A stretch of 10,966 bases of DNA from an uncultured Gammaproteobacteria bacterium (GTDB lineage Bacteria; Patescibacteriota; Patescibacteriia; 2-01-FULL-39-33). The translations under genes and the position numbers were made by a program. Where the stretch lies: positions 677 through 11,642 of the forward strand of contig CAZYUN010000019.1 of the NCBI GenBank assembly GCA_964650755.1, in the 5' to 3' direction. The notes beneath the pieces were generated by a model. That model was not told the DNA's origin and searched no databases. It saw nothing but the letters and a program-made list of their open reading frames with translations. Shown here piece by piece: positions 1-10,966 of the stretch (its first letter is position 1; each line of letters starts with the position of its first letter).

Positions 1-681
1 TAATAATAATTTAACAGAATCATCATCAATCAAAGATAGTGCTCTTATAACATCATCAAATCCTTTTCGCTTAATCAAGCGACCAACACCCAAAACAACA
101 AAATCATTTTTTTTAATACCATAAATATCCCTAATATTAATATCGTGATTGAAATCCCTTTCAATAAAAGAAACTCCCGGATACAACACAATAAAATGAT
201 CTTTAGGCAAATTATATTTCTCAGCAATAATATCAGCTACTTGTCGACTAACGGCAATCACGCCATCGGCTTTAGATAGCGTCCAATATTTAAGCTTATG
301 AGTCAAAAAAAATCCACCGGTCTTTAAAGCATCAGCACCATAAGCACTGACAAAAACTTTTTTCTTCGCAAATATTTTGTTAAACAATACTATTAAAAAA
401 CCAATCGGAAAAAGATCAGTGGCATGAAAAACATCATAATGGCGTAATCGCCAAAAAGCAAAAAATAACCGGCAAATAGTTAGTGGCAAAAAATTACGAC
501 CATAAGCCCGAATAAACAACCTAACATCAATCATTTGCCGTGGTTGGGGATTATTTAAAGCAATAACCGACACCGCCTCCACATCAGGCAATTTAGACAC
601 ATTTAAAGCCAAATTACCGGCAAACTCAGCGCCACCCCCGATTGTTGGGGGAAAATCAATATTAAAATAAGCTATTTTCAT
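1..681 (-). CDS. Glycosyltransferase, GT4/GT1 family. Partial: N-terminal 227 codons are present and the C-terminus runs past the window start.
   Basis: Manual minus-strand translation from the ATG at 679-681 reads MKIAYFNIDFPPTIGGGAEFAGNLA ... VLGVGRLIKRKGFDDVIRAL with no stop before the window edge. The N-terminal GT4 Gly-rich motif and the later 'GRL.KRKG' donor-binding region are typical of family-1/4 glycosyltransferases. It is absent from the ORF track because it has no in-window stop. Confidence 0.7.
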   Translation of the reverse strand, partial: MKIAYFNIDFPPTIGGGAEFAGNLALNVSKLPDVEAVSVIALNNPQPRQMIDVRLFIRAYGRNFLPLTICRLFFAFWRLRHYDVFHATDLFPIGFLIVLFNKIFAKKKVFVSAYGADALKTGGFFLTHKLKYWTLSKADGVIAVSRQVADIIAEKYNLPKDHFIVLYPGVSFIERDFNHDINIRDIYGIKKNDFVVLGVGRLIKRKGFDDVIRALSLIDDDSVKLLL

Positions 682-742
682 TATTAAATTTTAATTTTAA
701 GTTGATTTAATCACGCTTTTATTGTATAAATAAATAAAGAAA

Positions 743-1027
743 ATGGCAAATAATTATGATCGCCACAATCAAGCCACAAACCAATTTTCAAAACTCTTTT
801 TTTTCTTTATATTACCAAAACTAATACTTGGCGGTGGTCTATTTTATTCGTTATCAATCTTATTATTACTGCCTCAAATAAAAACCATTTGGCATCTAAT
901 CATCATTGGCCCGACCAGTATTTTAATTTATCTGATCATTTTTGCGGTACTTGGTTTTTTTGAAAAAGAAGATAAAAATCATCTAACAAAAATCCGCCAA
1001 CTTTGGGGTGGCGGAAATCTGGATTAA
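743..1027 (+). CDS. Small hydrophobic protein (94 aa, about 2 predicted transmembrane segments), function unknown.
   Basis: A 94-codon ORF in about 30% GC DNA, where random ORFs are short. Two long hydrophobic stretches (ILPKLILGGGLFYSLSILLLL and IIIGPTSILIYLIIFAVLGFF). It fills the 342-bp gap between two minus-strand glycosyltransferase genes. No SD, but native genes here generally lack one. Confidence 0.4.
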   Translation: MANNYDRHNQATNQFSKLFFFFILPKLILGGGLFYSLSILLLLPQIKTIWHLIIIGPTSILIYLIIFAVLGFFEKEDKNHLTKIRQLWGGGNLD

Positions 1028-2244
1028 TTAAGTTGATTATATATTTTATCTAGTAATTTAATAATAATCGGCCAATCATATTTTTCTAATACCCTTAAAC
1101 GACCATTAGTCCCAAACTCCCCTCTTAATTTATTATCATTTAAAAGTTTTTTAAGTTTTTCTTTTAAATCATTCTCGTCGCTCGGTTTCACTAAATAGCC
1201 GGTTTTGTTATTTTCTAAAGTTAAACGCACGCCCGGCCAATCACTTACAATCACTGGGATGCCACAACTTTGGGCTTCAGCAACTACAATACCAAAACTT
1301 TCAATACCAACGGTTGACGGCAAAACCAAGACATCAGCCAAACGATAATAATCAGGCAATTGATCATTATCAACCCAACCCACAAAAAACACGCGATCAG
1401 CAACACCCAATTCTTCAGCTAATTTTTGATAATCCCGACGAAAAATTCCATCACCAATAATTACTAATTTGGCTTCACCCCTAAATTCATTTAAAACCCC
1501 CTTAACACTTCCCTCTTCAATAATATCCGGAAAAAAATTAATATCAATCATTTTAAAAGCTCGCAACAATTCAGGAACACCTTTAAAATAATGCTGTTTT
1601 CCCAAACCACCAACAAATAAAATTAATTTATCATAAGGATTAAGAGAATATTGAGATATTAATGCTTGCTTTTTTTCTCCCGGAAAAAACAAATTCGTAT
1701 CTACCCCATTGGGTAATTCAAAAAATTTTTCAGGATGTTTTTTGATTATTTTTTTAAGATAAGAATTCTCAGCATGATCATAAGACAAAACCCCAATCAA
1801 ATCGGCAGTATTGAAAATAATCGGCCAAAATAATTTAACATAAAGCCAAAAAACAAAACCCTTCAAACCGGATTCCAGAGGGTCCATTTGATAATGAATT
1901 ACCAATTTAACCTGAGGATGAAATAGTTTAAATAAAACAACCGACAAATCCGAACCAAAAAATGGCGAATATAAATGTATAATTTGATAATTAGACAAAT
2001 AACGCCACAAACCCCAAAGCCAACCAGCTTTACCAATTTTAAAAATTCCCTTAAGTGGCTTTAAGATAAAACCGGTTTGACTTTTATCAATACCTGAAAA
2101 ATCCAAAGTAAAAACACCGACAGAATAACCGGCTTGAGATAGTTTAATGGCTTGATAATAAGCATTATTACCTATTCCCCCACCATTAGGTGGCCAAGCA
2201 CAAACAACGATGGCAATTTTTTTCTTATCTTGCAATATTTCCAT
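1024..2244 (-). CDS. Glycosyltransferase, GT4/GT1 family (about 407 aa).
   Basis: The ORF runs 1024..2376 in the track. The biologically sensible start is the ATG at 2242-2244 (MEILQDKKKIAIVVCAWPPNGGGIGNNAYY), because the KIAIV...PP.GGG motif marks the extreme N-terminus of GT4 enzymes. The C-terminal half carries 'GGLGKQHYFKGVPELLRAF' and an 'E..G.PVIVSD' donor-binding signature. A strong terminator from the upstream gene lies at 2310-2351, so starts at 2307 or 2376 would overlap it. Confidence 0.8.
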   Translation of the reverse strand: MEILQDKKKIAIVVCAWPPNGGGIGNNAYYQAIKLSQAGYSVGVFTLDFSGIDKSQTGFILKPLKGIFKIGKAGWLWGLWRYLSNYQIIHLYSPFFGSDLSVVLFKLFHPQVKLVIHYQMDPLESGLKGFVFWLYVKLFWPIIFNTADLIGVLSYDHAENSYLKKIIKKHPEKFFELPNGVDTNLFFPGEKKQALISQYSLNPYDKLILFVGGLGKQHYFKGVPELLRAFKMIDINFFPDIIEEGSVKGVLNEFRGEAKLVIIGDGIFRRDYQKLAEELGVADRVFFVGWVDNDQLPDYYRLADVLVLPSTVGIESFGIVVAEAQSCGIPVIVSDWPGVRLTLENNKTGYLVKPSDENDLKEKLKKLLNDNKLRGEFGTNGRLRVLEKYDWPIIIKLLDKIYNQLN

Positions 2245-2309
2245 AAAAACAATAATATTAATTATAATACATTTTTTCAAAATTTTAGTCAAAATAATAT
2301 TTTGCATTC

Positions 2310-2351
2310 CTAATAAAAAAATAAAAAAAGTCCGCTCACGAAGAGCGGACA
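2310..2351 (-). terminator. Rho-independent terminator for the 149-aa gene.
   Basis: An 8-bp GC-rich stem gtccgctc/gagcggac (2330-2337 / 2343-2350) with loop acgaa. On the minus strand it is followed by TTTTTTTATTTTTTTATTAG (complement of 2310-2329). It lies 25 nt downstream of the stop at 2376. Confidence 0.7.
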
Positions 2352-2375: not shown

Positions 2376-2825
2376 CTATGGCCTGGAATTTTCAGTCAAA
2401 AATTTGTGACGATGGCGCGCCGATGCCCAATGCTGATAGTATTCTGACAAGTCGGGACGATGCGCCAAATCCAATATTCGCCTGACCATATGCAAAATCT
2501 CCAATTGATCCACATTACCAGTTAAAACAACCGGTCTAAATTCTTTTGCGATATTGATATCATTATAAAAAATGTCAATATTAACATTTGATTGATGCGC
2601 TCTGAAAATCTTAAACACTAAGCCATCATTAGATGACTCCAACAATCTGAATTCTATCTCAAACAGATCTTCCAACTGAAACGTCTCTACTCGCATGAAT
2701 TGCGCGGATTTCAAGCTTTGACGAACTTTCGTAGCGAATTCTTCAGACATTAACATTCTTTCGAATAACCAATCAATCAAACGTTTTGTGCCTTCTTTCG
2801 GCAATTCCAGTTTGTCTTGTGTCAT
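2376..2825 (-). CDS. Hypothetical protein (149 aa), no recognisable family. GC is modestly elevated at about 39%.
   Basis: Complete ORF. Canonical SD AAGGAG sits 7 nt upstream of the ATG (complement of 2826-2845 reads tggctaaaaAGGAGtatttccATG). It has its own strong terminator. The C-terminal region 'RRILDLAHRPD' loosely matches a HEPN-like Rx4-6H motif, but that is not diagnostic. Confidence 0.6.
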   Translation of the reverse strand: MTQDKLELPKEGTKRLIDWLFERMLMSEEFATKVRQSLKSAQFMRVETFQLEDLFEIEFRLLESSNDGLVFKIFRAHQSNVNIDIFYNDINIAKEFRPVVLTGNVDQLEILHMVRRILDLAHRPDLSEYYQHWASARHRHKFLTENSRP

Positions 2826-2979
2826 GGAAATACTCCTTTTTAGCCAATTTTGGCGATTTTGACCGCGGTTTAAAGAACTATTGAGACAATAATTATATCA
2901 CTCCTAACAAAAAAAGTCAAGTTATTTGAAATCATAAACAAAAAAATAAAATAAAAATTATCTAATTTTAAACAAAAAT

Positions 2980-3690
2980 ATGATAGCCACACTAAAAAAC
3001 AAGCGAGAAATAGCCATCAATACAACATTATTTGAATTAACTTTGGAGCAAGAAATTAACTTTAAAGCCGGTCAATTCTTTTTTAGCAAATTAATCGATT
3101 CAGAAACAACCGTGGCCTCTGATTTAACAAGGCATTTTTCCTTTGTTAATCCCCCCGAGGATAACAAAATCATAGAATTCGCAACTAGAATTTCTGACTC
3201 CGATTTTAAGCAAAAATTAAACAATCTAAAAATCGGATCACCAATAGAAATTACCGGGCCAGCCGGAAAATTTATATTACCGACTAACGCATCAGAATTA
3301 ATCATGATCGCTGGCGGTATCGGCATTACCCCGTTTATCAGTCAATTGCGTCACATACAAAATCAACAATTAGATTATAAAATAAAATTATTACATTTTA
3401 ATACCAATCAAACTACTGCTCCTTTTTATGACACATTACAAAAATTCAATCAAATATTAAAAAATTTTTCCTTTGTGCCAATTATGAGTGAAAACAAAAA
3501 TTGGTCGGGCGAAACCGGTTATATCAACCAAGATATAATACAAAAACACTCTCAACACTTTTCAGAACCGTTTTTCTTGGTTGTTGGGCCACCACCAATG
3601 ATAAAAAATACGCTACTCTCTCTAAAAGAATTAGCTATATCGGAGTCCCGTATTTTAACTGAGGAGTTCACTGGCTATACTAATTATTAA
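2980..3690 (+). CDS. FAD/NAD(P)-binding oxidoreductase of the ferredoxin-NADP+ reductase (FNR-like) family (236 aa).
   Basis: 'RHFS' (the RxYS FAD-binding motif), 'GPAGKF' and 'IAGGIGITP' (GGxGxxP NAD(P)-binding loop) lie in the FNR-family order. The C-terminal 'VVGPPPM' matches the conserved C-terminal Gly-Pro motif of FNR-type reductase modules. Confidence 0.75.
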   Translation: MIATLKNKREIAINTTLFELTLEQEINFKAGQFFFSKLIDSETTVASDLTRHFSFVNPPEDNKIIEFATRISDSDFKQKLNNLKIGSPIEITGPAGKFILPTNASELIMIAGGIGITPFISQLRHIQNQQLDYKIKLLHFNTNQTTAPFYDTLQKFNQILKNFSFVPIMSENKNWSGETGYINQDIIQKHSQHFSEPFFLVVGPPPMIKNTLLSLKELAISESRILTEEFTGYTNY

Positions 3691-3699
3691 ATTCAAAAA

Positions 3700-3730
3700 A
3701 ACCGACTCTCGCTAAGTCGGTTTTAAAATT
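3700..3730. terminator. Bidirectional rho-independent terminator between convergent genes.
   Basis: An 8-bp stem aaccgact/agtcggtt (3700-3707 / 3715-3722) with a 7-nt loop. It is flanked by an A-run on the left and ttaaaattatttt on the right, giving a U-tract on either strand. It sits exactly between the FNR-like stop (3690) and the PHP stop (3729). Confidence 0.6.
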
Positions 3731-4430
3731 ATTTTAATTGAAAATGATATTTGAAAAATTTCCAAAGTTGCAATAAATGATAATAAAATAATTCCGTAAT
3801 CTTTTTGGGGTGGGTAATATTTGTAAAATTACCATTACGCAAAGCAACAAAAAAAGAATTAACATCCAAATGATTAACGTCAACCTCAATATAGTCAGTA
3901 TTTAAATAATTTAAATCATGAAGATCAGAAGTTGCGATAAATGGTAGCGACAACTCGTCAGCTAGTTTTTTTGTTTTTAAATTAGGATTAAAAAACTTCG
4001 TATAATGCCAACTATGCTCTATGCCATCAAACAAGTGACTTATTTTTTTTAAACTTTTTAAGCCCAAAGAAACAAAAAAACCATGATTGGGGTGCGGAGC
4101 AATCACAAAAATCTCAGGATGTTGTTTTTTATATTTTTCTAAATCCTCAAAACTTTTAAAATTATCATCATTAATACACTCACAATTCAATAATAAAATA
4201 TGCTTGCCCTTAATGTTTGCCTCCAAACCCGGAATCAAAATAACCCCCTGACGAAAAGCGTAATCCCTTAAATTATCATTAAAAATGCTTTTTTCGTGTC
4301 CAGTTAAAGCTAAAAAAGAAAAACCAAAATTAACCGCCTGATCAATTAATTGACGAGCCGAATAATCAATAATACTGTGATCTCGAAAATCTTCAGTGCT
4401 ATGTAGATGTAGTGATGCTTTTGTTTTCAT
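3729..4430 (-). CDS. PHP-domain (polymerase/histidinol-phosphatase-like) metal-dependent phosphoesterase (233 aa).
   Basis: The N-terminal 'ASLHLHSTEDFRDHS' matches the PHP 'H.H' metal-binding motif, which always lies near the N-terminus. Later His/Asp residues ('IAPHPNHG', 'ATSDLHD') fit PHP motifs III and IV. It overlaps the upstream AlkD ORF by 32 nt. Confidence 0.65.
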   Translation of the reverse strand: MKTKASLHLHSTEDFRDHSIIDYSARQLIDQAVNFGFSFLALTGHEKSIFNDNLRDYAFRQGVILIPGLEANIKGKHILLLNCECINDDNFKSFEDLEKYKKQHPEIFVIAPHPNHGFFVSLGLKSLKKISHLFDGIEHSWHYTKFFNPNLKTKKLADELSLPFIATSDLHDLNYLNTDYIEVDVNHLDVNSFFVALRNGNFTNITHPKKITELFYYHLLQLWKFFKYHFQLK

Positions 4431-5148
4431 TTTTATTAATTTTATAATTTAAAAATTTTTTTCGTTGATTTTCAGAAAAACGCTCTATGGCATATCTTAA
4501 GGTTGTTCTGGGCATTATTTCAATATGTTTCCATAAAAAATCTTCTAAATCCAAAACGCTAACTCTTTTGCCACTCTCCCGCAACATCCAGCCAATCGCT
4601 TTATGTATTAAATCATGTTTATCTTTTAATAATTTCTCAGCTATTTCAAAAGTTAAAGAATTAACCCCTTGACGCAAATGATAAAAAGTTGAAACTATCG
4701 CGATTCTTTTTAGCCACAAAGATTTTTTATTAGCTAATAATTTTAAATCCGGTTGCTTAAAATGAAAACTGCAATAACCAACAATATCATAAGCGGTCAA
4801 ATCAACCAAATCCCAATTATTAATAAATTGATAGTGTTTTAAATAAAAACGACATAATTTCTTCTTGTTAATATTATCAGCTTTTTTAAACTGATCCTTA
4901 ATTATTAATAAAGCGACTAATCTCTCTTCGTGATATTTGCTATTTAATAATTTAGAACAATCACTTAATTTTAAATTAAAAAATTTTTTAGCAACCCTTC
5001 TTTGTTGAGGTACTGTAATGCCCAAAAAAACATCACCCTCAGCATATTCTCCCTTGCCTGTTTTAAAAAACTTTTGAAGAATCTTTGCTTTTTGGGGATT
5101 AGCTAAAGATATTAATTCTGATTTTAATAATTGTAAATCGGAACTCAT
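4399..5148 (-). CDS. DNA alkylation repair enzyme, AlkD/AlkC-like HEAT-repeat DNA glycosylase family (249 aa).
   Basis: The N-terminal 'NPQKAKILQKFFKTGKGEYAEGDVFLGITVPQQRRVAKKF' closely matches the conserved opening of the DNA_alkylation (PF08713) family. Length and helical-repeat character also fit. No SD. Confidence 0.7.
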   Translation of the reverse strand: MSSDLQLLKSELISLANPQKAKILQKFFKTGKGEYAEGDVFLGITVPQQRRVAKKFFNLKLSDCSKLLNSKYHEERLVALLIIKDQFKKADNINKKKLCRFYLKHYQFINNWDLVDLTAYDIVGYCSFHFKQPDLKLLANKKSLWLKRIAIVSTFYHLRQGVNSLTFEIAEKLLKDKHDLIHKAIGWMLRESGKRVSVLDLEDFLWKHIEIMPRTTLRYAIERFSENQRKKFLNYKINKNENKSITTST

Positions 5149-5190
5149 AATAATTTATAACTATTTAATAAAAAACAAAAGTTTGTTTTA

Positions 5191-7743
5191 TCAAAGTCCA
5201 TATTTATTATAAAATTTATTTTTACCCCATTCAACAATCACAAAATAAATAAGACTAATACCGATAATAGAAGATAAAATCCAAACTGGTATAGGCTCAA
5301 AACCTAAAAATCGACCAATAGGAGCATAAATAAATAAAAAAATAATCAATAGAGTTATAAATGACGATAATAACAAAATATTAGCAGGACGACTCTTAAA
5401 AAATATTCTTTTTGTTCTAATAACAAAAATTAACAAAACCTCAGTTAAAAAAGATTGCCAAAACCAGCCGGTTTGAAAAAGTGGCATTGTAGCTTTAGCA
5501 ATTAAAATTAAAAAAATAAAGGTAATAAAATCAAAAAAAGAAGAAACTAAACCAAAATAATTCATAAATTTCTTTATATGATTAATGTCCCACTTCTTGG
5601 GATTATTAATTGATTCTTCATCGACATTATCATAAGCAATAGACAACATTGGCAAATCACTTAAAAAATTAAGCAATAAAACTTGAATTGGCAACATTGG
5701 AATAAATGGCAAAAATATTGAGGCCCCAACTACAGAAAACATGTTGCCATAATTAGAAGCAATGGTGCAAATTATATATTTCATTGTATTATTAAAGTTT
5801 CTACGCCCCCCACGAATTCCCTCAATTAAAATTGGCAAACTTTTTCTAAGTAAAACAACATCAGCAGCTTCTCTGGCTATATCTGTAGCTGAATTAACAG
5901 AAATACCCACATCAGCCATCTTAAGTGCGGGCGCATCATTAATACCATCACCCAAAAAAGCAACGCTATGACCAGTATCTTTTAATGCTTTGACGATTTT
6001 TAATTTATGTTCAGGAGTAACTTTAGCAAAAACATCAAAATCACTAACTACTTTTTGCAATTCTAAATCAGATAAGCCACTTAATTTATTACCAATAATT
6101 GCCTTAGGATTTAAAAAGCCGGTCTGCTTGGCTAAAAATAAAGCCGAGCCCAAAGAATCACCCGTTAATAATTTAATAGATACCCCCAAATCTCTAAAAG
6201 CATCTAATGATTTTTTAGAGCCTCTTTTTGGTGGATCATTAAAAACCAAAAAACCACTAAAAATTAAATTTTTTTGATTATTTTTTTTACTCTCCGATTC
6301 TAAATAATCATAAGCAACCAATAAAACTTTAAAACCTGCAGATTCAAGATTTTTTATTTTTTGTTTAATATTATTTAAAAAATAACTTATTTTTCTTTTT
6401 TTTCCATGGTATAAAATATAAGTACAAGCATCCAAAATTTCTTCAACCGCACCCTTAACAATTATCTGTGGTAATTCGTTATTAGACTTCACCACAACAC
6501 TCATTATCCTCTTATTAAAATCAAAGGGGGTGATGTTAATAAAACTATAATCTTTAATTTTCTTTGTTAATTTATGTTTTTTTGCATAATCAATAATAGC
6601 TTCATCTAATGGATTAGAAAAAGATTCGCCATTTTTTAAACTTAAAGAATTACATAATTGCGATAAAGTTATTAAATAATCATCTTGCACATCATCTAAA
6701 TCAAAATAATTATATAATTCTATTTTCCCCTCGGTTAATGTTCCCGTTTTGTCAGTACATAAAACATCAGCATTGCCTAAATTTTCAACTGCCATTAACT
6801 GTTTAACAATAACTGATTTTTTAGCCAAATTTCTAGCGGTCTGAGATAAATTTATAGTAATAATCATTGGTAATAATTCGGGCGATATACCAACAGCGAT
6901 AGCTAAAGAAAACATTAATGCTTCCAACCAATTACCCTTTAAAAAAGCAAGAAATAAAAAAATTAATAATGTAAATAAAATAATTATTTTAAATAAGAAA
7001 AAACCAAAACTATTAATGCTTTTTTGAAATTCCGATTCATTTTTTGAATTCAACAATAATTGTGAGTTTTTGCCAAATTCAGTATTTAAGCCAGTAGCAA
7101 CAACAACACCCAATCCTGAACCCTGAATAATATAAGTTCCCATAAAAACCAAATTTTTCATTATTTGTGGTAAATAATCACGAACAATTTGTGGATTAGA
7201 ATTTTTTTCAACCGGAAATGATTCACCGGTCAATGAAGATTCATCAACTAATAAACAATTTGATTTAACCAATCTAATATCTGCTGGCACAACACCACCA
7301 GCACTTAAAAAAACCATATCTCCAACAACTACATCAGTTACATGGATATTTATTTTTCTACCATCCCTAAAAACCCAAACATCCGAAGAAACTCTTTTTT
7401 TTAATAAAGAAATTGTTTTTTCGCTTTTATATTCTTGATAAAAAGAAAGACAGGAAGATAAAAATATAATAATAAAAATAATAAAAGTAGAAAGAAATTC
7501 TCCCAAAAAAAACGAAACTACTAATGCTAACAACAAAATTAAAATTAATGGATTTTTAAATTGTTTAAAAAAAATTTGAAAAATCATGGGCTCACCATTA
7601 TTACCAATGATGTTAAATCCATACTTGTTTAATCTGGATTTTGCTTCACCCTGAGAAATACCAGCAAATGAAGTATTAAAAACAGACAAAATATCATCAA
7701 CCCCTAACTCCCAAAAGGGTTTTATTGTTTTAATTTTAGACAT
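5191..7743 (-). CDS. Cation-transporting P-type ATPase (850 aa), MgtA/Ca2+-ATPase-like (P2/P3 type).
   Basis: Phosphorylation-site motif 'CTDKTGTLT' and actuator 'TGES' within 'VDESSLTGESFPVEK'. Also 'TGD' and hinge 'GDGINDAPALKMADVGISV'. About 10 transmembrane segments. The N-terminal 'ILSVFNTSFAGISQGEAKSRLNKYGFN' is a typical cation-ATPase N-domain. Size and the 'ES.PVEK' motif resemble Mg2+-importing MgtA. Confidence 0.85.
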   Translation of the reverse strand: MSKIKTIKPFWELGVDDILSVFNTSFAGISQGEAKSRLNKYGFNIIGNNGEPMIFQIFFKQFKNPLILILLLALVVSFFLGEFLSTFIIFIIIFLSSCLSFYQEYKSEKTISLLKKRVSSDVWVFRDGRKINIHVTDVVVGDMVFLSAGGVVPADIRLVKSNCLLVDESSLTGESFPVEKNSNPQIVRDYLPQIMKNLVFMGTYIIQGSGLGVVVATGLNTEFGKNSQLLLNSKNESEFQKSINSFGFFLFKIIILFTLLIFLFLAFLKGNWLEALMFSLAIAVGISPELLPMIITINLSQTARNLAKKSVIVKQLMAVENLGNADVLCTDKTGTLTEGKIELYNYFDLDDVQDDYLITLSQLCNSLSLKNGESFSNPLDEAIIDYAKKHKLTKKIKDYSFINITPFDFNKRIMSVVVKSNNELPQIIVKGAVEEILDACTYILYHGKKRKISYFLNNIKQKIKNLESAGFKVLLVAYDYLESESKKNNQKNLIFSGFLVFNDPPKRGSKKSLDAFRDLGVSIKLLTGDSLGSALFLAKQTGFLNPKAIIGNKLSGLSDLELQKVVSDFDVFAKVTPEHKLKIVKALKDTGHSVAFLGDGINDAPALKMADVGISVNSATDIAREAADVVLLRKSLPILIEGIRGGRRNFNNTMKYIICTIASNYGNMFSVVGASIFLPFIPMLPIQVLLLNFLSDLPMLSIAYDNVDEESINNPKKWDINHIKKFMNYFGLVSSFFDFITFIFLILIAKATMPLFQTGWFWQSFLTEVLLIFVIRTKRIFFKSRPANILLLSSFITLLIIFLFIYAPIGRFLGFEPIPVWILSSIIGISLIYFVIVEWGKNKFYNKYGL

Positions 7744-7748
7744 AAATA

Positions 7749-8561
7749 TTAATCATTCCTTAATAATGATAAAATATCTTTTATTTTTTTATTGGTCTCA
7801 TGCCAGCCCGCTTCAACTATTTGATTTTCACTTTTTTTCAAAAAATAATCACTCCATTTAGAATATTGTGATAAATTAGGTTCAATAATAATATCACTGT
7901 ATTGCATTGATAATTTAGATAGATTTTGTCGTAATAAATCCATAGTCCTAATACTAATATCAATTAATTTTGGTTTTTGAATATTAAGATTTAATTCTCC
8001 ACGATGATCTAAATTAACTGAAATAATAATATCGGCCCCCATTTGTTTCAATAAATCATCCGGCACCGGATCAGAAATACCACCGTCAGCCAAAAGTTTA
8101 CCTTCAAACACAACCGGCCGAAAAACACCCGGTACCGCCATACTGGCACGACACGCAAAAGCCAAATTACCGGTTTTAAATATATATTGTTCGCCACTAA
8201 TCAAATCGGTTGTGGTAATAGCCATGGGAATTTTTAAATCAGTAAAATTAGCATGATTTAACCAAACATCCAGCATTGACTCTAATTTATTTCCACCAAC
8301 TAAACCGCCACGTAATTTTAACTCTAAAAAACTAAGTAGTTTTTCTTTTTTCTTGCCAACCGTAAAATCTCTTAATAATTCCACATCTTGAAACAAAGCA
8401 TAATGAGCGCCAACCCAAGAACCAATACTGGAACCGGCTATTAAATCAATGGGGATATTATTTTCTACCAAAGCTTTAATCACTCCAACATGTGCCAAAC
8501 CTCGAACCCCACCACTACCTAAAGCCAAGCCAACCTTCTTGTTATACTTATTATTTAACAT
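7749..8561 (-). CDS. Patatin-like phospholipase (RssA/YjjU-like, 270 aa).
   Basis: Oxyanion-hole 'GSGGVRG', nucleophile elbow 'GSSIG' (GxSxG) and catalytic 'ADGGIS' (DGG/DGA Asp) lie in canonical order and spacing. It ends 5 nt before the ATPase start codon, which implies co-transcription. Confidence 0.85.
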   Translation of the reverse strand: MLNNKYNKKVGLALGSGGVRGLAHVGVIKALVENNIPIDLIAGSSIGSWVGAHYALFQDVELLRDFTVGKKKEKLLSFLELKLRGGLVGGNKLESMLDVWLNHANFTDLKIPMAITTTDLISGEQYIFKTGNLAFACRASMAVPGVFRPVVFEGKLLADGGISDPVPDDLLKQMGADIIISVNLDHRGELNLNIQKPKLIDISIRTMDLLRQNLSKLSMQYSDIIIEPNLSQYSKWSDYFLKKSENQIVEAGWHETNKKIKDILSLLRND

Positions 8562-8605
8562 AATTTTATTATAATTTACTAATTTATTTTATCATAAATA
8601 CCAGT

Positions 8606-8636
8606 TTTAAAAAACAGGGCGTAAACCCTGTTAAAA
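8606..8636 (-). terminator. Probable rho-independent terminator for the lipoprotein gene.
   Basis: A 7-bp stem aacaggg/ccctgtt (8616-8622 / 8629-8635) with loop cgtaaa. On the minus strand it is followed by UUUUAAAACU. It lies just downstream of the lipoprotein stop (8642). The stem is short and moderate in GC. Confidence 0.4.
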
Positions 8637-8641
8637 GAACT

Positions 8642-9142
8642 TTAATTATTTTTTTGTGCTTCAAGATCAACCCACTGGAGTGGCAAATGCATCCTGCCCA
8701 CCTCTCCTCGATTATAAAGCCAAACACCATTTCCTAAACCATTGAATTTAATACCGTGATAAAAATTCTTAGTTTCAGCAAAAGCAACCAACTCTTCATT
8801 ATACAATTCAAAAACATAAACACCAGAACCAACAACTGCACCGCCATGATACATTACGGCGATTTTGGTTGAGTCCTTAGACCAAGCTATGCCCTTTAGA
8901 TCATTGGCATAACGAATATAAGGCAAAACATTCCAATCATAAGCAAAAGATCCGCCACAACCAAAGCGCTTAAAAACGCCTATTTGACCGGTACCAATCG
9001 GCTGAATTTCACGAGCATAAAACAAGCCATTAGGCGAATAAGCTTTGGCACCAATCGGAACAGAACCATCAAAAGAATTGACATTAGCCGAGCAACCAAG
9101 CAACAAAAAAATCATCAAACACAGCAACAATTGGATTTTCAT
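8642..9142 (-). CDS. Lipoprotein of unknown function (about 166 aa from the ATG at 9142). GC is elevated at about 40%.
   Basis: The track ORF begins at a TTG at 9163. The ATG at 9140-9142 is preferred because GGAG sits 7 nt upstream (aGGAGaccaaccATG). That start gives MKIQLLLCLMIFLLLGC-SANVN, a classic signal peptidase II lipobox (L-L-G-C). The mature part is Gly/Tyr-rich and probably beta-rich ('YDWNVLPYIRYANDLKGIAWSKDSTKIAVMYHGGAVVGSGVYVFELY'). No family recognised. Confidence 0.65.
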   Translation of the reverse strand: MKIQLLLCLMIFLLLGCSANVNSFDGSVPIGAKAYSPNGLFYAREIQPIGTGQIGVFKRFGCGGSFAYDWNVLPYIRYANDLKGIAWSKDSTKIAVMYHGGAVVGSGVYVFELYNEELVAFAETKNFYHGIKFNGLGNGVWLYNRGEVGRMHLPLQWVDLEAQKNN

Positions 9143-9212
9143 GGTTGGTCTCCAAGGGTACAACTACCCTGATTCGGATTTTAAGTACTACACCCCTCAT
9201 TGGTTTTTTACT

Positions 9213-9240
9213 CCCCAATCAAAAAAAAGTCAAATAAAAA
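9213..9240. repeat. Direct repeat copy 1 (ccccaa...aaaaagtcaaataaaaaa). Its partner lies at 10871-10894.
   Basis: The 18-nt string aaaaagtcaaataaaaaa occurs exactly at 9223-9240 and again at 10875-10892. Both copies are preceded by cccc(a)a a few nt upstream. Together the copies bracket the flotillin gene and its leader. Confidence 0.5.
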
Positions 9241-9270
9241 AGCGTGGGTCTGAATTTACAGACAACCACG
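9223..9270 (-). terminator. Rho-independent terminator for the flotillin gene.
   Basis: On the minus strand the stem gcgtgg+gtctg (9241-9251) pairs with cagac(aa)ccacgc (9258-9270) around loop aattta. It is immediately followed by UUUUUUAUUUGACUUUUUUUU (complement of 9220-9240). It lies 17 nt past the flotillin stop (9287-9289). Confidence 0.7.
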
Positions 9271-9286
9271 CATTGAGTCAAAGAGC

Positions 9287-10642
9287 TTATTTGCTGGCTT
9301 CCGGGGCGACGGGGGCGCTCTCCACGGGAGTGACCGGCTTAACCGGATTGACACCGAGAGCAGACAAGATCGCTTGGCCCATGGGGGTCTGAGCCACCCC
9401 TTCAATCATCGAGCCCAACTCGGTTCCGCCTCTGGAGCTGAAGAGCTCCATAACGCCCTTCACACCATCACCGGGGCTACCCGCATTGGAGATGACCCTG
9501 ACTTCCGCTTTCTGCAACGCCTTGGCCTGCTCAACCCCGACCTGAATGTGGGCCTTGATGGCCTCAATCGACACGAGGTAGCGCTGATACCCATCATTGG
9601 CACCAATCTCCTTGGCAAGAGCAATTGATGCACTAACAGGCACCATTTGCATGGCCGATTCGGCTGTGGCTTTCGCTTCACCGATGGTCTTGATGGCTTC
9701 CGCTTCCTTGAATTTGGCTTCGAGCTCACCCTCAGCGATAATGACGCGAGTCCGCTTACCCTGCTCGGCGGTGACAATCTCTTTCTCCTTTTCAATTTCT
9801 GCAGTACGAACCGCCAGAACACTGGCCACATCCATCTCGCGCTGCTTGGTCACCTTGGACTGAGCCAAGACCTCCTGTTGCGCTTGCTGGTTGGCGATAC
9901 CAACGGCCCGATCTTTCTCGGCGGTCCGCTGACCGATCATCTCCTCGGCTTCCTGACGGCAAACCTCCACTGTGCGCGTAGCTTCGATTTCCGCCGTTTC
10001 GGCAGTCTGATTATTATTCGCAACTTCGCGCCTGGATTCCATCTGAATTTGCGAGGTTTTCTTTGCCATGATATTTTCAACCACGTTACTATTGCTACAG
10101 TCGCGCAGATCCATAAGCTCCATAGATTTGACCGCTTCAAGACCCCACTCCTGCAACTGATCCCTAACCTCGGCGGTAAATGCATCACCAAATTGGGAAC
10201 GCTCAACCATGATTGTGTCAATAACACCCGAAGCCAAAACCTTACGCACAGCACCCCGCACAATCACTGTTGCCTGATTTTTGAGTTCTTCAAAGCTGGA
10301 AATACGTTGTGCCGCTTTCGCCGCATCCTGAATACGAAAAAATGCAGTAACATCAACCATAAATGGAACCCTGTCCCTATCATACGCATCATAACTCTCA
10401 AGAGATATATCAAAATTACTAATCGGCAACCGAATAACCGTTACACCAAACATCGGGATTGCTGATGGCCACGCATAATACACATTGCCAGCGACCTGCC
10501 CCGTTCCGTATGGGGTTGTCTTGCGACGACTTTGGACAATATGCACCATATTGGTACTCACCACTCGCCGAAACTTGATTGATATCAAGAAAGACAAAAA
10601 CCCAACAAATCCCAAACATCCCAGGATTGCGATCATACTCAT
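9287..10642 (-). CDS. Flotillin-like SPFH/band-7 domain membrane protein (451 aa), similar to FloT/YuaG and YqiK. Compositionally foreign at about 63% GC.
   Basis: The N-terminal hydrophobic anchor (MSMIAILGCLGFVGFLSFLISIKF) is followed by an SPFH core ('VPFMVDVTAFFRIQDAAKAAQRI...ATVIVRGAVRKVLASGVIDTIMVERSQFGDAFTAEVRDQLQEWGLE'). A long Ala/Glu-rich coiled-coil tail with EA-type repeats follows ('AEIEKEKEIVTAEQGKRTRVIIAEGELEAKFKEAEAIKTIGEAKATAE'), which is the defining flotillin architecture. AAGGAG lies 7 nt upstream of the ATG at 10642. GC counted over 9301-9500 is 126/200, against about 28% in the neighbours. Confidence 0.85.
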   Translation of the reverse strand: MSMIAILGCLGFVGFLSFLISIKFRRVVSTNMVHIVQSRRKTTPYGTGQVAGNVYYAWPSAIPMFGVTVIRLPISNFDISLESYDAYDRDRVPFMVDVTAFFRIQDAAKAAQRISSFEELKNQATVIVRGAVRKVLASGVIDTIMVERSQFGDAFTAEVRDQLQEWGLEAVKSMELMDLRDCSNSNVVENIMAKKTSQIQMESRREVANNNQTAETAEIEATRTVEVCRQEAEEMIGQRTAEKDRAVGIANQQAQQEVLAQSKVTKQREMDVASVLAVRTAEIEKEKEIVTAEQGKRTRVIIAEGELEAKFKEAEAIKTIGEAKATAESAMQMVPVSASIALAKEIGANDGYQRYLVSIEAIKAHIQVGVEQAKALQKAEVRVISNAGSPGDGVKGVMELFSSRGGTELGSMIEGVAQTPMGQAILSALGVNPVKPVTPVESAPVAPEASK

Positions 10643-10710
10643 CCATTTTCTCCTTTTTCTTTTCTTTTTTTGCTAAACTTCCAACCCACCTTAGGTTAGA
10701 ATACAGCTCA

Positions 10711-10764
10711 GAAAAAACCCCTCAATAAAATGATAGATTTACTCTGAGCTGTATAGAAGTCCAA
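10711..10764. promoter_or_regulatory. A 12-bp perfect inverted repeat (atacagctcaga ... tctgagctgtat) with a 30-nt spacer, in the flotillin 5' leader.
   Basis: Read directly from the sequence: 10711-10722 pairs with 10753-10764. It lies about 70-120 nt upstream of the flotillin ATG on the transcribed (minus) strand. No U-tract follows, so it is not a classic terminator. It may be a leader structure or a dimeric protein-binding site. Confidence 0.35.
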
Positions 10765-10803: not shown

Positions 10804-10832
10804 AACATAGCAGATTAAATTAAATTTGTCAA
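10804..10832 (-). promoter_or_regulatory. Putative sigma70-like promoter for the flotillin gene.
   Basis: On the minus strand, TTGACA (complement of 10827-10832) is followed by a 17-nt spacer and then TATGTT (complement of 10804-10809). This would give a leader of about 155 nt containing the inverted repeat. Motif match only. Confidence 0.3.
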
Positions 10833-10870: not shown

Positions 10871-10894
10871 CCCCAAAAAGTCAAATAAAAAAAA
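10871..10894. repeat. Direct repeat copy 2, lying 10-30 nt from the 3' end of tRNA-Asn.
   Basis: Exact 18-nt match to 9223-9240, extendable to ccccaaaaagtcaaataaaaaaaa. See copy 1. Confidence 0.5.
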
Positions 10895-10903
10895 TCACCG
10901 GAA

Positions 10904-10966
10904 CTCCGCGAACTGGATTCGAACCAGTAACCTACCGGTTAACAGCCGGTTGCTCTACCATTGAGC
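10904..10966 (-). tRNA. tRNA-Asn (anticodon GUU). Partial: D-arm to discriminator are present and the 5' acceptor strand lies beyond the window end.
   Basis: The reverse complement reads GCTC-AATGGTA-GAGC (D-arm), A, ACCGG-CTGTTAA-CCGGT, AGGTT (variable loop), ACTGG-TTCGAAT-CCAGT (T-arm with TTCGAAT loop), TCGCGGA + G (discriminator). In the anticodon arm U33-GUU-A37 gives anticodon GUU. CCA is not encoded (TTCC follows). Confidence 0.85.

What the first reader, a model, noticed from the sequence alone, without database searches (positions are those of the whole stretch)
2376..10660. Translation-signal dichotomy: native genes lack Shine-Dalgarno sequences, while three compositionally atypical genes carry canonical AAGGAG/GGAG sites and their own terminators
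Seven AT-rich genes show no purine-rich SD within 5-12 nt of their starts (5-13 nt for the ATPase, which has only a weak 'aagga' 13 nt upstream). These are the two GT4 enzymes, the FNR-like oxidoreductase, PHP, AlkD, the P-type ATPase and patatin. That pattern is characteristic of lineages with SD-independent initiation, such as Bacteroidota or some CPR lineages. In contrast, the three GC-elevated genes each have a well-spaced SD. Flotillin at 63% GC has AAGGAG 7 nt upstream. The lipoprotein at about 40% GC has GGAG 7 nt upstream. The 149-aa hypothetical at about 39% GC has AAGGAG 7 nt upstream. Each of the three is also followed by a hairpin with a U-tract. The co-occurrence of atypical GC, an SD and a private terminator points to at least three independent imports from SD-using donors. 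It also gives a cheap way to flag imported genes across this genome.
Basis: partly seen in the sequence, partly recalled or inferred. Interest (0 to 1): 0.6.

Follow-up and report, generated by a model that had tools for sequence, protein, structure and literature searches.

The report
Shine-Dalgarno split in a CPR genome
In this AT-rich candidate-phyla-radiation bacterium only about a quarter of genes carry a classic ribosome-binding site; the split is real but follows how each gene is transcribed rather than whether it is foreign, and only the flotillin gene is a demonstrable import, a repeat-flanked single-gene insertion next to a tRNA.

Summary
The sequence facts hold. GGAG sits exactly 7 nt before the ATG of the 149-aa gene, the lipoprotein and flotillin. 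The other eight starts have none, apart from a weak AAGGA 13 nt before the ATPase. All three genes end in a hairpin plus U-tract. Flotillin is 51.8% GC, not 63%. The lipoprotein is barely atypical, and the 149-aa gene is atypical in only some alleles.

The host is a Parcubacteria-group CPR bacterium of about 32% GC. In about 22 genes of this species, six carry a Shine-Dalgarno site (SD). Three of those have native composition: two alternative sigma factors and an 83-aa gene. The 149-aa family keeps AAGGAG and the 7-nt spacing in three diverged relatives, so the host reads SDs.

AT-rich, SD-less segments are also mobile. The ATPase is missing from one relative, and a restriction-modification island in another has no SDs. 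SD presence follows transcript layout. SD genes have their own promoter and a long, GC-richer leader. SD-less genes look leaderless, coupled to the gene before them, or fronted by an unstructured AU-rich stretch.

Flotillin is a true import: GC3 of 0.56 against 0.25, in a 1.63-kb cassette beside tRNA-Asn bounded by 18-26-nt direct repeats. A modest SD-GC3 correlation exists, but SD is a poor flag for imported genes.

The parts
10650..10655 (-). AAGGAG Shine-Dalgarno site, 7 nt before the flotillin ATG
   Evidence: Kept in strains L001, L003, L058 and L059; changed to AGAGAG in sister strain L002.
9287..10642 (-). Flotillin/SPFH gene, 451 aa. GC 0.518, GC3 0.56.
   Evidence: Pfam PF01145, E = 2.5e-17. 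Composition. Homologues at 60-69% identity in many CPR and proteobacterial genomes and at 46-51% in large phages.
10804..10832 (-). Promoter-like site TTGACA-17-TATGTT with a TG extension. Implies a flotillin leader of about 155 nt.
   Evidence: 100% conserved in L002 and recognisably conserved in L017.
10701..10754 (-). 19-pair hairpin in the flotillin 5' leader
   Evidence: The leader folds at -48.4 kcal/mol, z -5.9. Against L017 there are 5 compensatory pair changes and no broken pair. No Rfam family matches.
9236..9271 (-). Flotillin intrinsic terminator: hairpin 9242-9271 followed by a U-tract
   Evidence: -16.8 kcal/mol, z -3.9
9224..9241 (.). Direct repeat copy 1, AAAAAGTCAAATAAAAAA, abutting the flotillin terminator
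   Evidence: Exact over 26 nt in L002. 0 of 300 shuffles give a repeat of 18 nt or more. Also present in L058 and L059.
10875..10892 (.). Direct repeat copy 2, about 12 nt 3' of tRNA-Asn. With copy 1 it brackets the 1.63-kb flotillin cassette.
10904..10966 (-). tRNA gene, cut by the window end. It is tRNA-Asn (GTT) in the sister strain.
   Evidence: Rfam RF00005, 53.6 bits; ARAGORN on L002
9150..9153 (-). GGAG Shine-Dalgarno site, 7 nt before the lipoprotein ATG
   Evidence: The leader is nearly identical in L002.
8642..9142 (-). Lipoprotein gene, 166 aa, with signal peptide and lipobox LLGC. GC 0.389, GC3 0.317.
   Evidence: Sequence read directly; composition; 107 distant cluster representatives. 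It lies outside the repeat-bounded cassette.
8607..8632 (-). Lipoprotein terminator: hairpin 8613-8632 followed by a U-tract
   Evidence: -12.7 kcal/mol, z -2.5
2833..2838 (-). AAGGAG Shine-Dalgarno site, 7 nt before the hyp149 ATG
   Evidence: The motif and the 7-nt spacing are conserved in L002 and L016, while the spacer sequence differs.
2376..2825 (-). hyp149, an orphan 149-aa gene. GC 0.384, GC3 0.413.
   Evidence: No Pfam or NCBIfam hit; only 3 clusters found; 55-62% identical alleles at the same locus in L002 and L016.
2892..2920 (-). Near-consensus promoter TTGACT-17-TATAAT with a TG extension. Implies a leader of about 60 nt for hyp149.
   Evidence: 11 of 12 positions match
2323..2350 (-). 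hyp149 terminator: hairpin 2330-2350 followed by a U-tract
3729..8561 (-). SD-less operon patatin (7749-8561), P-type ATPase (5191-7743), AlkD (4399-5148) and PHP (3729-4430). The gene junctions are a 5-nt gap, a 42-nt gap and a 32-nt overlap.
   Evidence: (ATPase domains)
8568..8595 (-). Promoter-like site whose TATAAT ends 6 nt before the patatin ATG, suggesting a leaderless transcript
2252..2280 (-). Promoter-like site TTGAAA-17-TATTAT ending 7 nt before the GT4b ATG at 2244, suggesting a leaderless transcript
2980..3690 (+). FNR-like oxidoreductase gene, SD-less, with a 100% A/T short leader
3698..3724 (.). Bidirectional terminator shared by the operon and FNR
   Evidence: -13.9 kcal/mol, z -3.9
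1..2244 (-). Two SD-less GT4 glycosyltransferase genes: GT4a at 1-681 (partial) and GT4b at 1024-2244

Best explanation
The window comes from an AT-rich (about 32% GC) Parcubacteria-group CPR bacterium that uses Shine-Dalgarno (SD) pairing for only about a quarter of its genes. The split in translation signals follows transcript architecture, not native versus foreign origin.

SD genes are stand-alone units. Each has its own sigma-70-type promoter, a 60-155-nt leader that is GC-richer and more structured, and its own terminator. These genes need and keep a GGAG core exactly 7 nt (range 4-7 nt) from the ATG. They are flotillin, the lipoprotein and hyp149, plus two alternative sigma factors and an 83-aa gene just outside the window.

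SD-less genes fall into three groups. Some start at the transcript's 5' end, with the -10 box ending 6-7 nt before the ATG. Some are coupled to the preceding gene by an overlap or a gap of 2-7 nt. Some sit behind a leader of 0-17% GC that cannot fold.

Shown: the motifs, their spacing, their conservation, the composition and the repeat-bounded cassette.

Inferred: that the 16S rRNA keeps a working anti-SD; that the -10-adjacent starts are truly leaderless; and that structure in the leader is what makes an SD necessary.

Only flotillin is a demonstrable import. It is a 1.63-kb single-gene cassette inserted beside tRNA-Asn with an 18-26-nt target or att-like duplication. It brought its own promoter, structured leader, SD and terminator.
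For: 1. The SD motif and its spacing exceed chance.
2. In 22 genes of this species, six are SD-bearing, including native-GC sig276 (AAAGGAGG), sig320 (true start AAGGAGG-6-ATG, behind TTGACT-17-TAAGAT) and hyp83.
3. The positional counterparts of the sigma genes in relative L011 have strong SDs at that host's 50% GC.
4. The hyp149 SD and its exact 7-nt spacing are kept in W, L002 and L016, although the proteins are only 55-62% identical and the spacer sequence differs.
5. In 154 pooled ORFs from low-GC loci, GGAG/GAGG peaks 6-10 nt before the ATG: 29 hits against about 0.4 per position elsewhere. A -10-like hexamer peaks 6-7 nt before the ATG: 12 and 5 hits against about 2.4.
6. SD genes have upstream GC of 0.27-0.53 and a start-region folding energy with median -3.5 kcal/mol. 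SD-less genes have 0.00-0.33 (16 of 17 at or below 0.20) and median -0.6 (p = 0.001 and 0.004).
7. Promoter-like sites lie 60 to about 155 nt upstream of hyp149 and flotillin, but 6-7 nt upstream of patatin and GT4b.
8. For flotillin: GC3 z = 9.5; flanking direct repeats of 18 nt (window) and 26 nt (L002) with 0 of 300 shuffles reaching 18 nt; tRNA adjacency; the variable region after RpoD differs among relatives; homologues in jumbo phages; and GC3-rich, SD-led flotillin copies inside SD-poor low-GC hosts elsewhere.
Against: - No 16S rRNA 3' end could be retrieved, and about half of Parcubacteria 16S sequences are reported to lack CCTCCT (PMC9297842).
- There are no transcription start site or expression data. 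-10-like hexamers are common in AT-rich DNA, so the leaderless calls are statistical only.
- The species sample is about 22 genes.
- A real, if modest, SD-GC3 correlation is what the import model predicts.
- The flotillin SD has decayed in one strain. Flotillin copies with host-like GC3 in the most AT-rich hosts mostly lack an SD.
- The hyp149 alleles in W and L016 do have raised GC3 (0.41 and 0.39).
Confidence: 0.6

Rival explanations
1. SDs in this genome are relics carried in with genes imported from SD-using, GC-richer donors. Flotillin, the lipoprotein and hyp149 are three separate imports. SD presence can be used to flag foreign genes.
For: - Flotillin fits fully.
- In relative L013, the only strong SD (TAAGGAGG) belongs to a 159-aa gene of 55% GC in a 41% GC genome, located in the same variable region after RpoD.
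- Flotillin is GC3-rich and SD-led in L015, L017, L018, L026, L041 and L043, where the flanking genes mostly lack SDs.
- SD-bearing ORFs have higher local GC3.
- Among low-GC hosts, 7 of 8 GC3-atypical flotillin copies have an SD, against 5 of 11 GC3-typical copies (p = 0.15).
- The flotillin SD has decayed in L002.
Against: - Native-composition genes carry the strongest SDs.
- hyp149 is a lineage-restricted orphan held at one locus in three relatives, with a selectively maintained SD and one allele of native GC.
- The lipoprotein's GC3 lies within or at the edge of the native range.
- AT-rich mobile segments, namely the ATPase and the L011 restriction-modification island, have no SD.
- 12 of 15 pooled SD genes are compositionally ordinary.
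Confidence: 0.2
2. The host ribosome cannot use SDs, either because the anti-SD is lost, as reported for some Parcubacteria, or because it is sequestered, as in Bacteroidia. On this view the GGAG motifs are non-functional leftovers.
For: - Most genes have no SD.
- The anti-SD motif is reported in only 48% of Parcubacteria 16S sequences (PMC9297842).
- There is a precedent in Bacteroidia, where ribosomes are blind to SDs (PMC7797042 and PMC13000453, listed).
- One strain has lost the flotillin SD.
Against: - The motif and the exact 7-nt spacing are conserved in hyp149 alleles that have otherwise diverged to 55-62% identity.
- Strong SDs occur on sigma-factor genes in two relatives of very different GC.
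- GGAG/GAGG shows a sharp positional peak 6-10 nt before starts.
- GGAG-N7-ATG is enriched in the window.
Confidence: 0.07
3. SD marks a small set of highly or conditionally expressed genes. Their slightly raised GC3 reflects expression-linked codon or mRNA-stability selection, not origin.
For: - SD genes are stand-alone units with near-consensus promoters.
- They include regulators (sigma factors) and envelope proteins.
- GC3 of the non-flotillin SD genes is shifted only modestly, to 0.24-0.32, or 0.41 for the window's hyp149 allele, against a background mean of 0.25.
Against: - There are no expression data.
- Housekeeping genes in the sample (RpoD, DnaG, rubrerythrin/desulfoferrodoxin) lack SDs.
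- This cannot explain flotillin's GC3 of 0.56 or its flanking repeats.
Confidence: 0.13

Closest known systems
SD-poor translation initiation in Bacteroidia (anti-SD sequestered by bS21, bS18 and bS6; only a few SD-bearing genes such as rpsU)
   Same: Most genes lack an SD and have A/U-rich upstream regions. A small, specific set of genes keeps strong SDs.
   Different: Here about 18-27% of genes carry well-spaced SDs, including sigma factors. These SDs are conserved across relatives, which argues for ordinary SD recognition. Sequestration could not be tested, and no Kozak-like A pattern was established.
Loss of the anti-SD motif in a Parcubacteria subgroup (Tsurumaki et al. 2022, PMC9297842)
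   Same: The same superphylum, and the same reduced reliance on SDs.
   Different: The positional enrichment and conservation of GGAG here imply that the anti-SD is retained in this lineage. The 16S sequence itself was not available.
Genomes that mix leaderless and SD-led initiation (as in Mycobacterium or Deinococcus; class C in my recollection of GeneMarkS-2)
   Same: A -10 box ending 6-7 nt before the ATG for a subset of genes, coexisting with SD-led genes.
   Different: This is a CPR host. A third, large class has no signal other than extreme AU-richness or stop-start coupling. No start-site data exist.
tRNA-linked genomic islands and integrase-less att-flanked elements (CIME-like)
   Same: The flotillin cassette is compositionally foreign, sits next to a tRNA gene and is bracketed by 18-26-nt direct repeats.
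   Different: It is only 1.63 kb and holds one gene. There is no integrase or mobility gene. The repeat lies just after the tRNA, not inside it. No empty site has been found yet.
Amelioration of horizontally acquired genes (Lawrence and Ochman model, from my own knowledge)
   Same: Across hosts, flotillin GC3 runs from host-like to strongly GC-rich, and total GC regresses towards about 0.5.
   Different: The possible parallel decay of the SD with amelioration is only a trend here (p = 0.15).

Membership tests
Canonical Shine-Dalgarno-led genes | A purine-rich GGAG or GAGG core complementary to the 16S 3' end, 5-10 nt before the start codon | tested here: met
   Three genes have GGAG exactly 7 nt upstream, with duplex energies of -6.4 to -8.7 kcal/mol.
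Canonical Shine-Dalgarno-led genes | The host 16S rRNA carries the CCUCC anti-SD | not testable with these tools
It is inferred from SD conservation and the positional peak.
SD-independent lineage (Bacteroidota-like) | A low genome-wide fraction of SD-led genes | tested here: met
   6 of about 22 genes in this species. About 18% of 154 pooled ORFs.
SD-independent lineage (Bacteroidota-like) | Ribosomes are blind to SDs, so residual SD motifs are not under selection | tested here: not met
   The SD and its 7-nt spacing are conserved across alleles of 55-62% identity. Sigma-factor genes in two relatives carry strong SDs.
Leaderless mRNAs | A -10 element ending about 6-8 nt before the start codon | tested here: met
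   Patatin has TATAAT at 6 nt, GT4b has TATTAT at 7 nt and GT4a has TAAAAT at 6 nt. The pooled peak is at 6-7 nt.
Leaderless mRNAs | The mapped transcription start coincides with the start codon | not testable with these tools
   No transcriptome data are available.
Intrinsic terminators | A GC-rich hairpin immediately followed by a U-tract | tested here: met
   Four sites: after flotillin, the lipoprotein and hyp149, and after the operon and FNR.
Horizontally acquired island at a tRNA locus (flotillin cassette) | Composition atypical for the host | tested here: met
   GC z = 7.6 and GC3 z = 9.5 against 19 genes.
Horizontally acquired island at a tRNA locus (flotillin cassette) | Flanking direct repeats next to a tRNA gene | tested here: met
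   Exact repeats of 18 nt (window) and 26 nt (L002) bracket the cassette, with one copy about 12 nt from tRNA-Asn.
Horizontally acquired island at a tRNA locus (flotillin cassette) | An integrase or other mobility gene within the element | tested here: not met
   The 1.63-kb cassette holds only the flotillin gene.
Horizontally acquired island at a tRNA locus (flotillin cassette) | An empty site in a close relative | tested here: inconclusive
   All five strains of the species carry the cassette. Distant relatives L011 and L013 lack it, but they also lack the tRNA and the lipoprotein at this position.
Horizontal import of hyp149 | Atypical composition, patchy distribution and homologues in other lineages | tested here: not met
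   It is an orphan family of 3 clusters. It occupies the same locus in W, L002 and L016. GC3 is 0.41, 0.27 and 0.39 in the three.
Horizontal import of the lipoprotein | Atypical composition at synonymous sites | tested here: inconclusive
   GC3 z = 2.1 (window) and 0.8 (L002). The taxa of its 107 distant relatives are unknown.
SPFH/flotillin (Band 7) | An SPFH domain, an N-terminal hydrophobic anchor and a C-terminal Ala/Glu-rich region | tested here: met
   PF01145, E = 2.5e-17. The N-terminal hydrophobic stretch and the EA-rich region are visible in the translation.

The most novel reading that the evidence does not exclude
The flotillin gene may be a self-contained, integrase-less mobile expression cassette. 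It would consist of a promoter, a covarying structured leader, an SD, the coding sequence and a terminator, and would insert with a target or att-like duplication. On this reading it repeatedly enters SD-poor CPR genomes from GC-richer donors, is related to SPFH genes of jumbo phages, and loses its SD as it ameliorates. SD decay would then serve as a clock for the age of an import in SD-poor hosts.
Probability: 0.2. Interest if true: 0.55.

Novelty: new member of a known kind. Interest (0 to 1): 0.33.

Why it matters
CPR bacteria are uncultured, so how they start translation must be read from sequence. This locus shows that at least one Parcubacteria lineage mixes three modes: SD-led starts, apparent leaderless starts, and starts that are coupled or simply AU-rich. 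This matters for calling gene starts in CPR genomes and for expressing CPR genes in other hosts.

It also shows the limit of a tempting shortcut. An SD is neither necessary nor sufficient evidence of foreign origin here. The repeat-bounded single-gene flotillin cassette is a small, concrete example of how CPR genomes acquire ready-to-express genes.

Tried and rejected
No close reference genome and no 16S sequence could therefore be reached.
- The supplements of the CPR ribosome paper are not held, so the anti-SD status of Buchananbacteria-like lineages could not be read.
- No paper in the library combines 'leaderless' and 'Parcubacteria'.
- Pfam and NCBIfam give nothing for hyp149, the lipoprotein, hyp83 or the small genes of L013.
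- An AlphaFold2 model of hyp149 from a 3-sequence alignment had pLDDT 44 and was not used.
- The cluster look-up returned no organism names. The look-up of the 94%-identical RpoD found no contig.
- Flotillin has no plasmid match.
- The lipoprotein is not related to the gene downstream of flotillin in L017, so there is no conserved flotillin-lipoprotein pair.
- No convincing flanking repeats exist around hyp149, the lipoprotein or the ATPase. The 13-nt GACTTTTTTT(A/G)TT pair around hyp149 is low-complexity and was judged to be chance.
- The flotillin leader was found only in W, L002 and L017, not in 35 other flotillin loci, and matches no Rfam family.
- I considered that flotillin's high GC might be intrinsic to the protein. 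This is partly true: copies with host-like GC3 still run about 0.05-0.10 above their flanks in total GC. It cannot explain a GC3 of 0.56.

Full report
**What is in the window.** Eleven genes and one cut tRNA gene are present.

| Gene | Coordinates | Strand |
|---|---|---|
| GT4a (partial) | 1-681 | - |
| 94-aa ORF | 743-1027 | + |
| GT4b | 1024-2244 | - |
| hyp149 | 2376-2825 | - |
| FNR-like oxidoreductase | 2980-3690 | + |
| PHP | 3729-4430 | - |
| AlkD | 4399-5148 | - |
| P-type ATPase | 5191-7743 | - |
| patatin | 7749-8561 | - |
| lipoprotein | 8642-9142 | - |
| flotillin/SPFH | 9287-10642 | - |
| tRNA (Asn in the sister strain) | 10904-10966 | - |

**Checking the observation.**
- GGAG-N7-ATG occurs four times in the window, against 0.72 expected. 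Three of the four are the starts of hyp149, the lipoprotein and flotillin.
- Anti-SD duplex energies are -8.2, -6.4 and -8.7 kcal/mol for those three. Six other genes give positive values, meaning no pairing. The ATPase gives -6.1, for an AAGGA 13 nt upstream.
- Each of the three genes is followed by a stable hairpin and a U-tract.
- The four-gene operon and FNR share a further, bidirectional terminator at 3698-3724. Terminators are therefore not special to the three genes.
- The composition claim needs correcting. Flotillin is 51.8% GC, not 63%; its GC3 is 0.56.
- Against 19 other genes of the species (GC3 0.251 +/- 0.032), flotillin is an extreme outlier (z = 9.5). The window's hyp149 allele is an outlier (z = 5.0), but the sister allele is not (z = 0.5). 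The lipoprotein is marginal (z = 2.1 and 0.8).

**Whose genome this is.** Exact-protein look-ups found the same locus in several independent assemblies.
- One is a sister strain, L002, about 91% identical overall, on a 49.6-kb contig.
- RpoD of that strain is 81% identical to 'Parcubacteria group bacterium ADurb.Bin326' and about 76% to Candidatus Buchananbacteria.
- The host is therefore a CPR/Patescibacteria bacterium of the Parcubacteria group.
- The junctions recur in assemblies from different samples, so the GC-rich flotillin is not an assembly chimera.

**Is an SD a mark of foreign genes?** Extending the survey to the flanks of L002 and L005 gives about 22 genes for the species.
- Six are SD-led. 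Besides the three in the finding, they are two alternative sigma-factor genes and an 83-aa gene (AAGGAGAG).
- One sigma gene has AAAGGAGG. The other has AAGGAGG-6-ATG behind a TTGACT-17-TAAGAT promoter.
- These three have GC of 0.31-0.37, which is native.
- In relative L011, whose core is 50% GC, the two sigma genes at the same position between desulfoferrodoxin and DnaG also have strong SDs. The core genes around them lack SDs and have A-rich upstream regions.
- hyp149 belongs to a family with only three clusters among 5.8 billion proteins.
- It sits between FNR and GT4b in W and L002, and next to FNR at the end of the short L016 contig. It has AAGGAG and exactly 7 nt of spacer in all three. 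Yet the spacer sequence differs and the proteins are only 55-62% identical.
- This is purifying selection on the SD, so the host ribosome very probably reads SDs.
- In 154 pooled ORFs from related low-GC loci, GGAG/GAGG shows a sharp peak 6-10 nt before the ATG.

**Are SD-less, AT-rich genes native?** Not necessarily.
- Relative L016 has patatin directly followed by AlkD, with no ATPase between them.
- The ATPase region (about 4600-7800) is 100% identical between W and L002. The rest of the locus is 63-98% identical. This points to a recent exchange of exactly that segment.
- The more distant relative L013 shares only AlkD, PHP and GT4b at this locus.
- In L011, the region after RpoD holds an AT-rich type I restriction-modification, Fic and SduA island. 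It runs 9-20 GC points below the core and contains no SD.

**What the SD does track.**
- SD genes have 0.27-0.53 GC in the 30 nt upstream and a foldable start region (median -3.5 kcal/mol).
- SD-less genes have 0.00-0.33 GC upstream (16 of 17 at or below 0.20) and essentially no structure (median -0.6). The differences give p = 0.001 and 0.004.
- The best promoter-like sites lie about 60 nt upstream of hyp149 and about 155 nt upstream of flotillin.
- For patatin and GT4b, the -10 box ends 6-7 nt before the ATG.
- In the pooled set, -10-like hexamers peak 6-7 nt before the ATG: 12 and 5 hits against about 2.4 elsewhere.
- Other SD-less genes overlap the previous gene or follow it within 2-7 nt.
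- I infer three initiation modes: SD-led on long leaders, leaderless, and coupled or AU-rich.

**Flotillin is a real import.**
- An exact 18-nt direct repeat lies at 9224-9241 and 10875-10892. It is 26 nt in L002 and is also present in L058 and L059.
- The repeat brackets the promoter, leader, coding sequence and terminator. One copy lies about 12 nt past tRNA-Asn. No shuffle reaches 18 nt.
- The lipoprotein lies outside the cassette. It probably sat next to the tRNA before the insertion, so the two genes are not one import.
- The flotillin family is 60-69% identical across many CPR and proteobacterial genomes. It also occurs in large Xanthomonas and Vibrio phages.
- Across 29 non-redundant flotillin loci (36 before removing near-duplicates and uncertain starts), flotillin GC exceeds its flanks in low-GC hosts and falls below them in high-GC hosts. 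In many low-GC, SD-poor hosts it is GC3-rich and SD-led.
- Flanking repeats recur at L021 (64 nt at 95% identity) and, more weakly, at L040 and L032.
- The W and L017 cassettes share a promoter and a 19-pair leader hairpin. Between them the hairpin shows five compensatory changes and no broken pair.

- SD genes do have higher GC3, both in this species (p = 0.003; 0.011 without flotillin) and in the pooled set (median +0.036 against 0; p = 5e-4).
- The shift is small. Twelve of 15 pooled SD genes are compositionally ordinary.
- Among low-GC hosts, 7 of 8 GC3-atypical flotillin copies have an SD, against 5 of 11 host-like copies (p = 0.15). The L002 strain has mutated AAGGAG to AGAGAG.
- SD decay after import is therefore possible but unproven.

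**Comparison with what is known.**
- SD-poor initiation is established for Bacteroidia (PMC7797042 and PMC13000453, listed).
- Loss of the anti-SD is reported for about half of Parcubacteria 16S sequences (PMC9297842).
- This locus resembles those cases in its low SD use. It differs in showing selected, well-spaced SDs.
- The flotillin cassette resembles a tRNA-linked island, but it has no integrase.

**Verdict.** The general rule that an SD means an import fails in both directions. The finding is of modest interest. The repeat-bounded flotillin cassette and its conserved leader are the most novel items.

Noticed in passing
window 9224-9241 and 10875-10892; L002 6850-6875 and 8502-8527: Exact direct repeats of 18 nt (26 nt in the sister strain) bracket the whole flotillin cassette, with one copy just past tRNA-Asn. 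This looks like a target or att-like duplication of a 1.63-kb single-gene insertion that carries no integrase.
   Followed up: yes
window 10701-10754 (minus strand); L017 about 160-215: The flotillin 5' leader contains a 19-pair hairpin. It is conserved against a cassette whose protein is 69% identical and which sits in another organism, with 5 compensatory changes and no broken pair. The leader is 100% identical between strains whose coding sequence differs by up to 25% in places. No Rfam family matches.
   Followed up: partly
window about 4600-7800: The ATPase and its edges are 100% identical to sister strain L002, while the rest of the locus is 63-98% identical. Relative L016 has patatin directly followed by AlkD, with no ATPase. 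This suggests recent recombination or insertion of an AT-rich, SD-less gene.
   Followed up: partly
window 743-1027 (+): The 94-aa ORF is the fused N-terminal 23 aa and C-terminal 67 aa of a 509-aa Polysacc_synt flippase. The flippase is intact in L002, L003 and L005, so this is a deletion polymorphism within the population.
   Followed up: partly
window 10003-10402: Inside the flotillin gene, a 400-nt segment is only 75-77% identical to the sister strain, while the flanking parts are 92-98% identical. This suggests intragenic recombination with a divergent flotillin allele.
   Followed up: no
window 2376-2825; L002 14919-15392; L016 3190-3642: hyp149 is a fast-diverging orphan: 55-62% identity between relatives whose neighbouring genes are 69-90% identical. 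Its promoter and SD are conserved. Its function is unknown and the AlphaFold2 model was unusable.
   Followed up: partly
L011 12000-21344; L013 11415-13431: The region downstream of RpoD is a variable hot spot. L011 has a type I restriction-modification, Fic, SduA and GmrSD defence island. L013 has three small genes, one of them at 55% GC with a perfect TAAGGAGG.
   Followed up: no
L021 3670-3794 and 5382-5506: In a 958-kb Patescibacteria contig, the flotillin gene is flanked by a direct repeat of about 125 nt (core of 64 nt at 95% identity) that includes a bidirectional terminator-like hairpin. Weaker flanking repeats occur at L040 (39 nt, 85%) and L032 (18 nt, 94%).
   Followed up: partly
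L002, L011 and L013 gene junctions (for example L013 13431/13434 and 14135/14138; L011 15904/15907): A TAATTATG stop-to-start junction recurs between adjacent SD-less genes: a stop codon, 2 nt, then ATG. This fits termination-reinitiation coupling.
   Followed up: no
phage records OQ427096.1, ON758385.1, MT460514.1 and others: Full-length homologues of this flotillin, 46-51% identical, are encoded by 126-229-kb Xanthomonas, Vibrio and Brevundimonas phages.
   Followed up: partly
L011 6767-6840 and 7814-7890: The two adjacent alternative sigma-factor genes of L011 have nearly identical promoter and leader sequences (GACAAAATAAT...CATTACACAACAAC). This suggests a duplicated, possibly autoregulated control region.
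   Followed up: no
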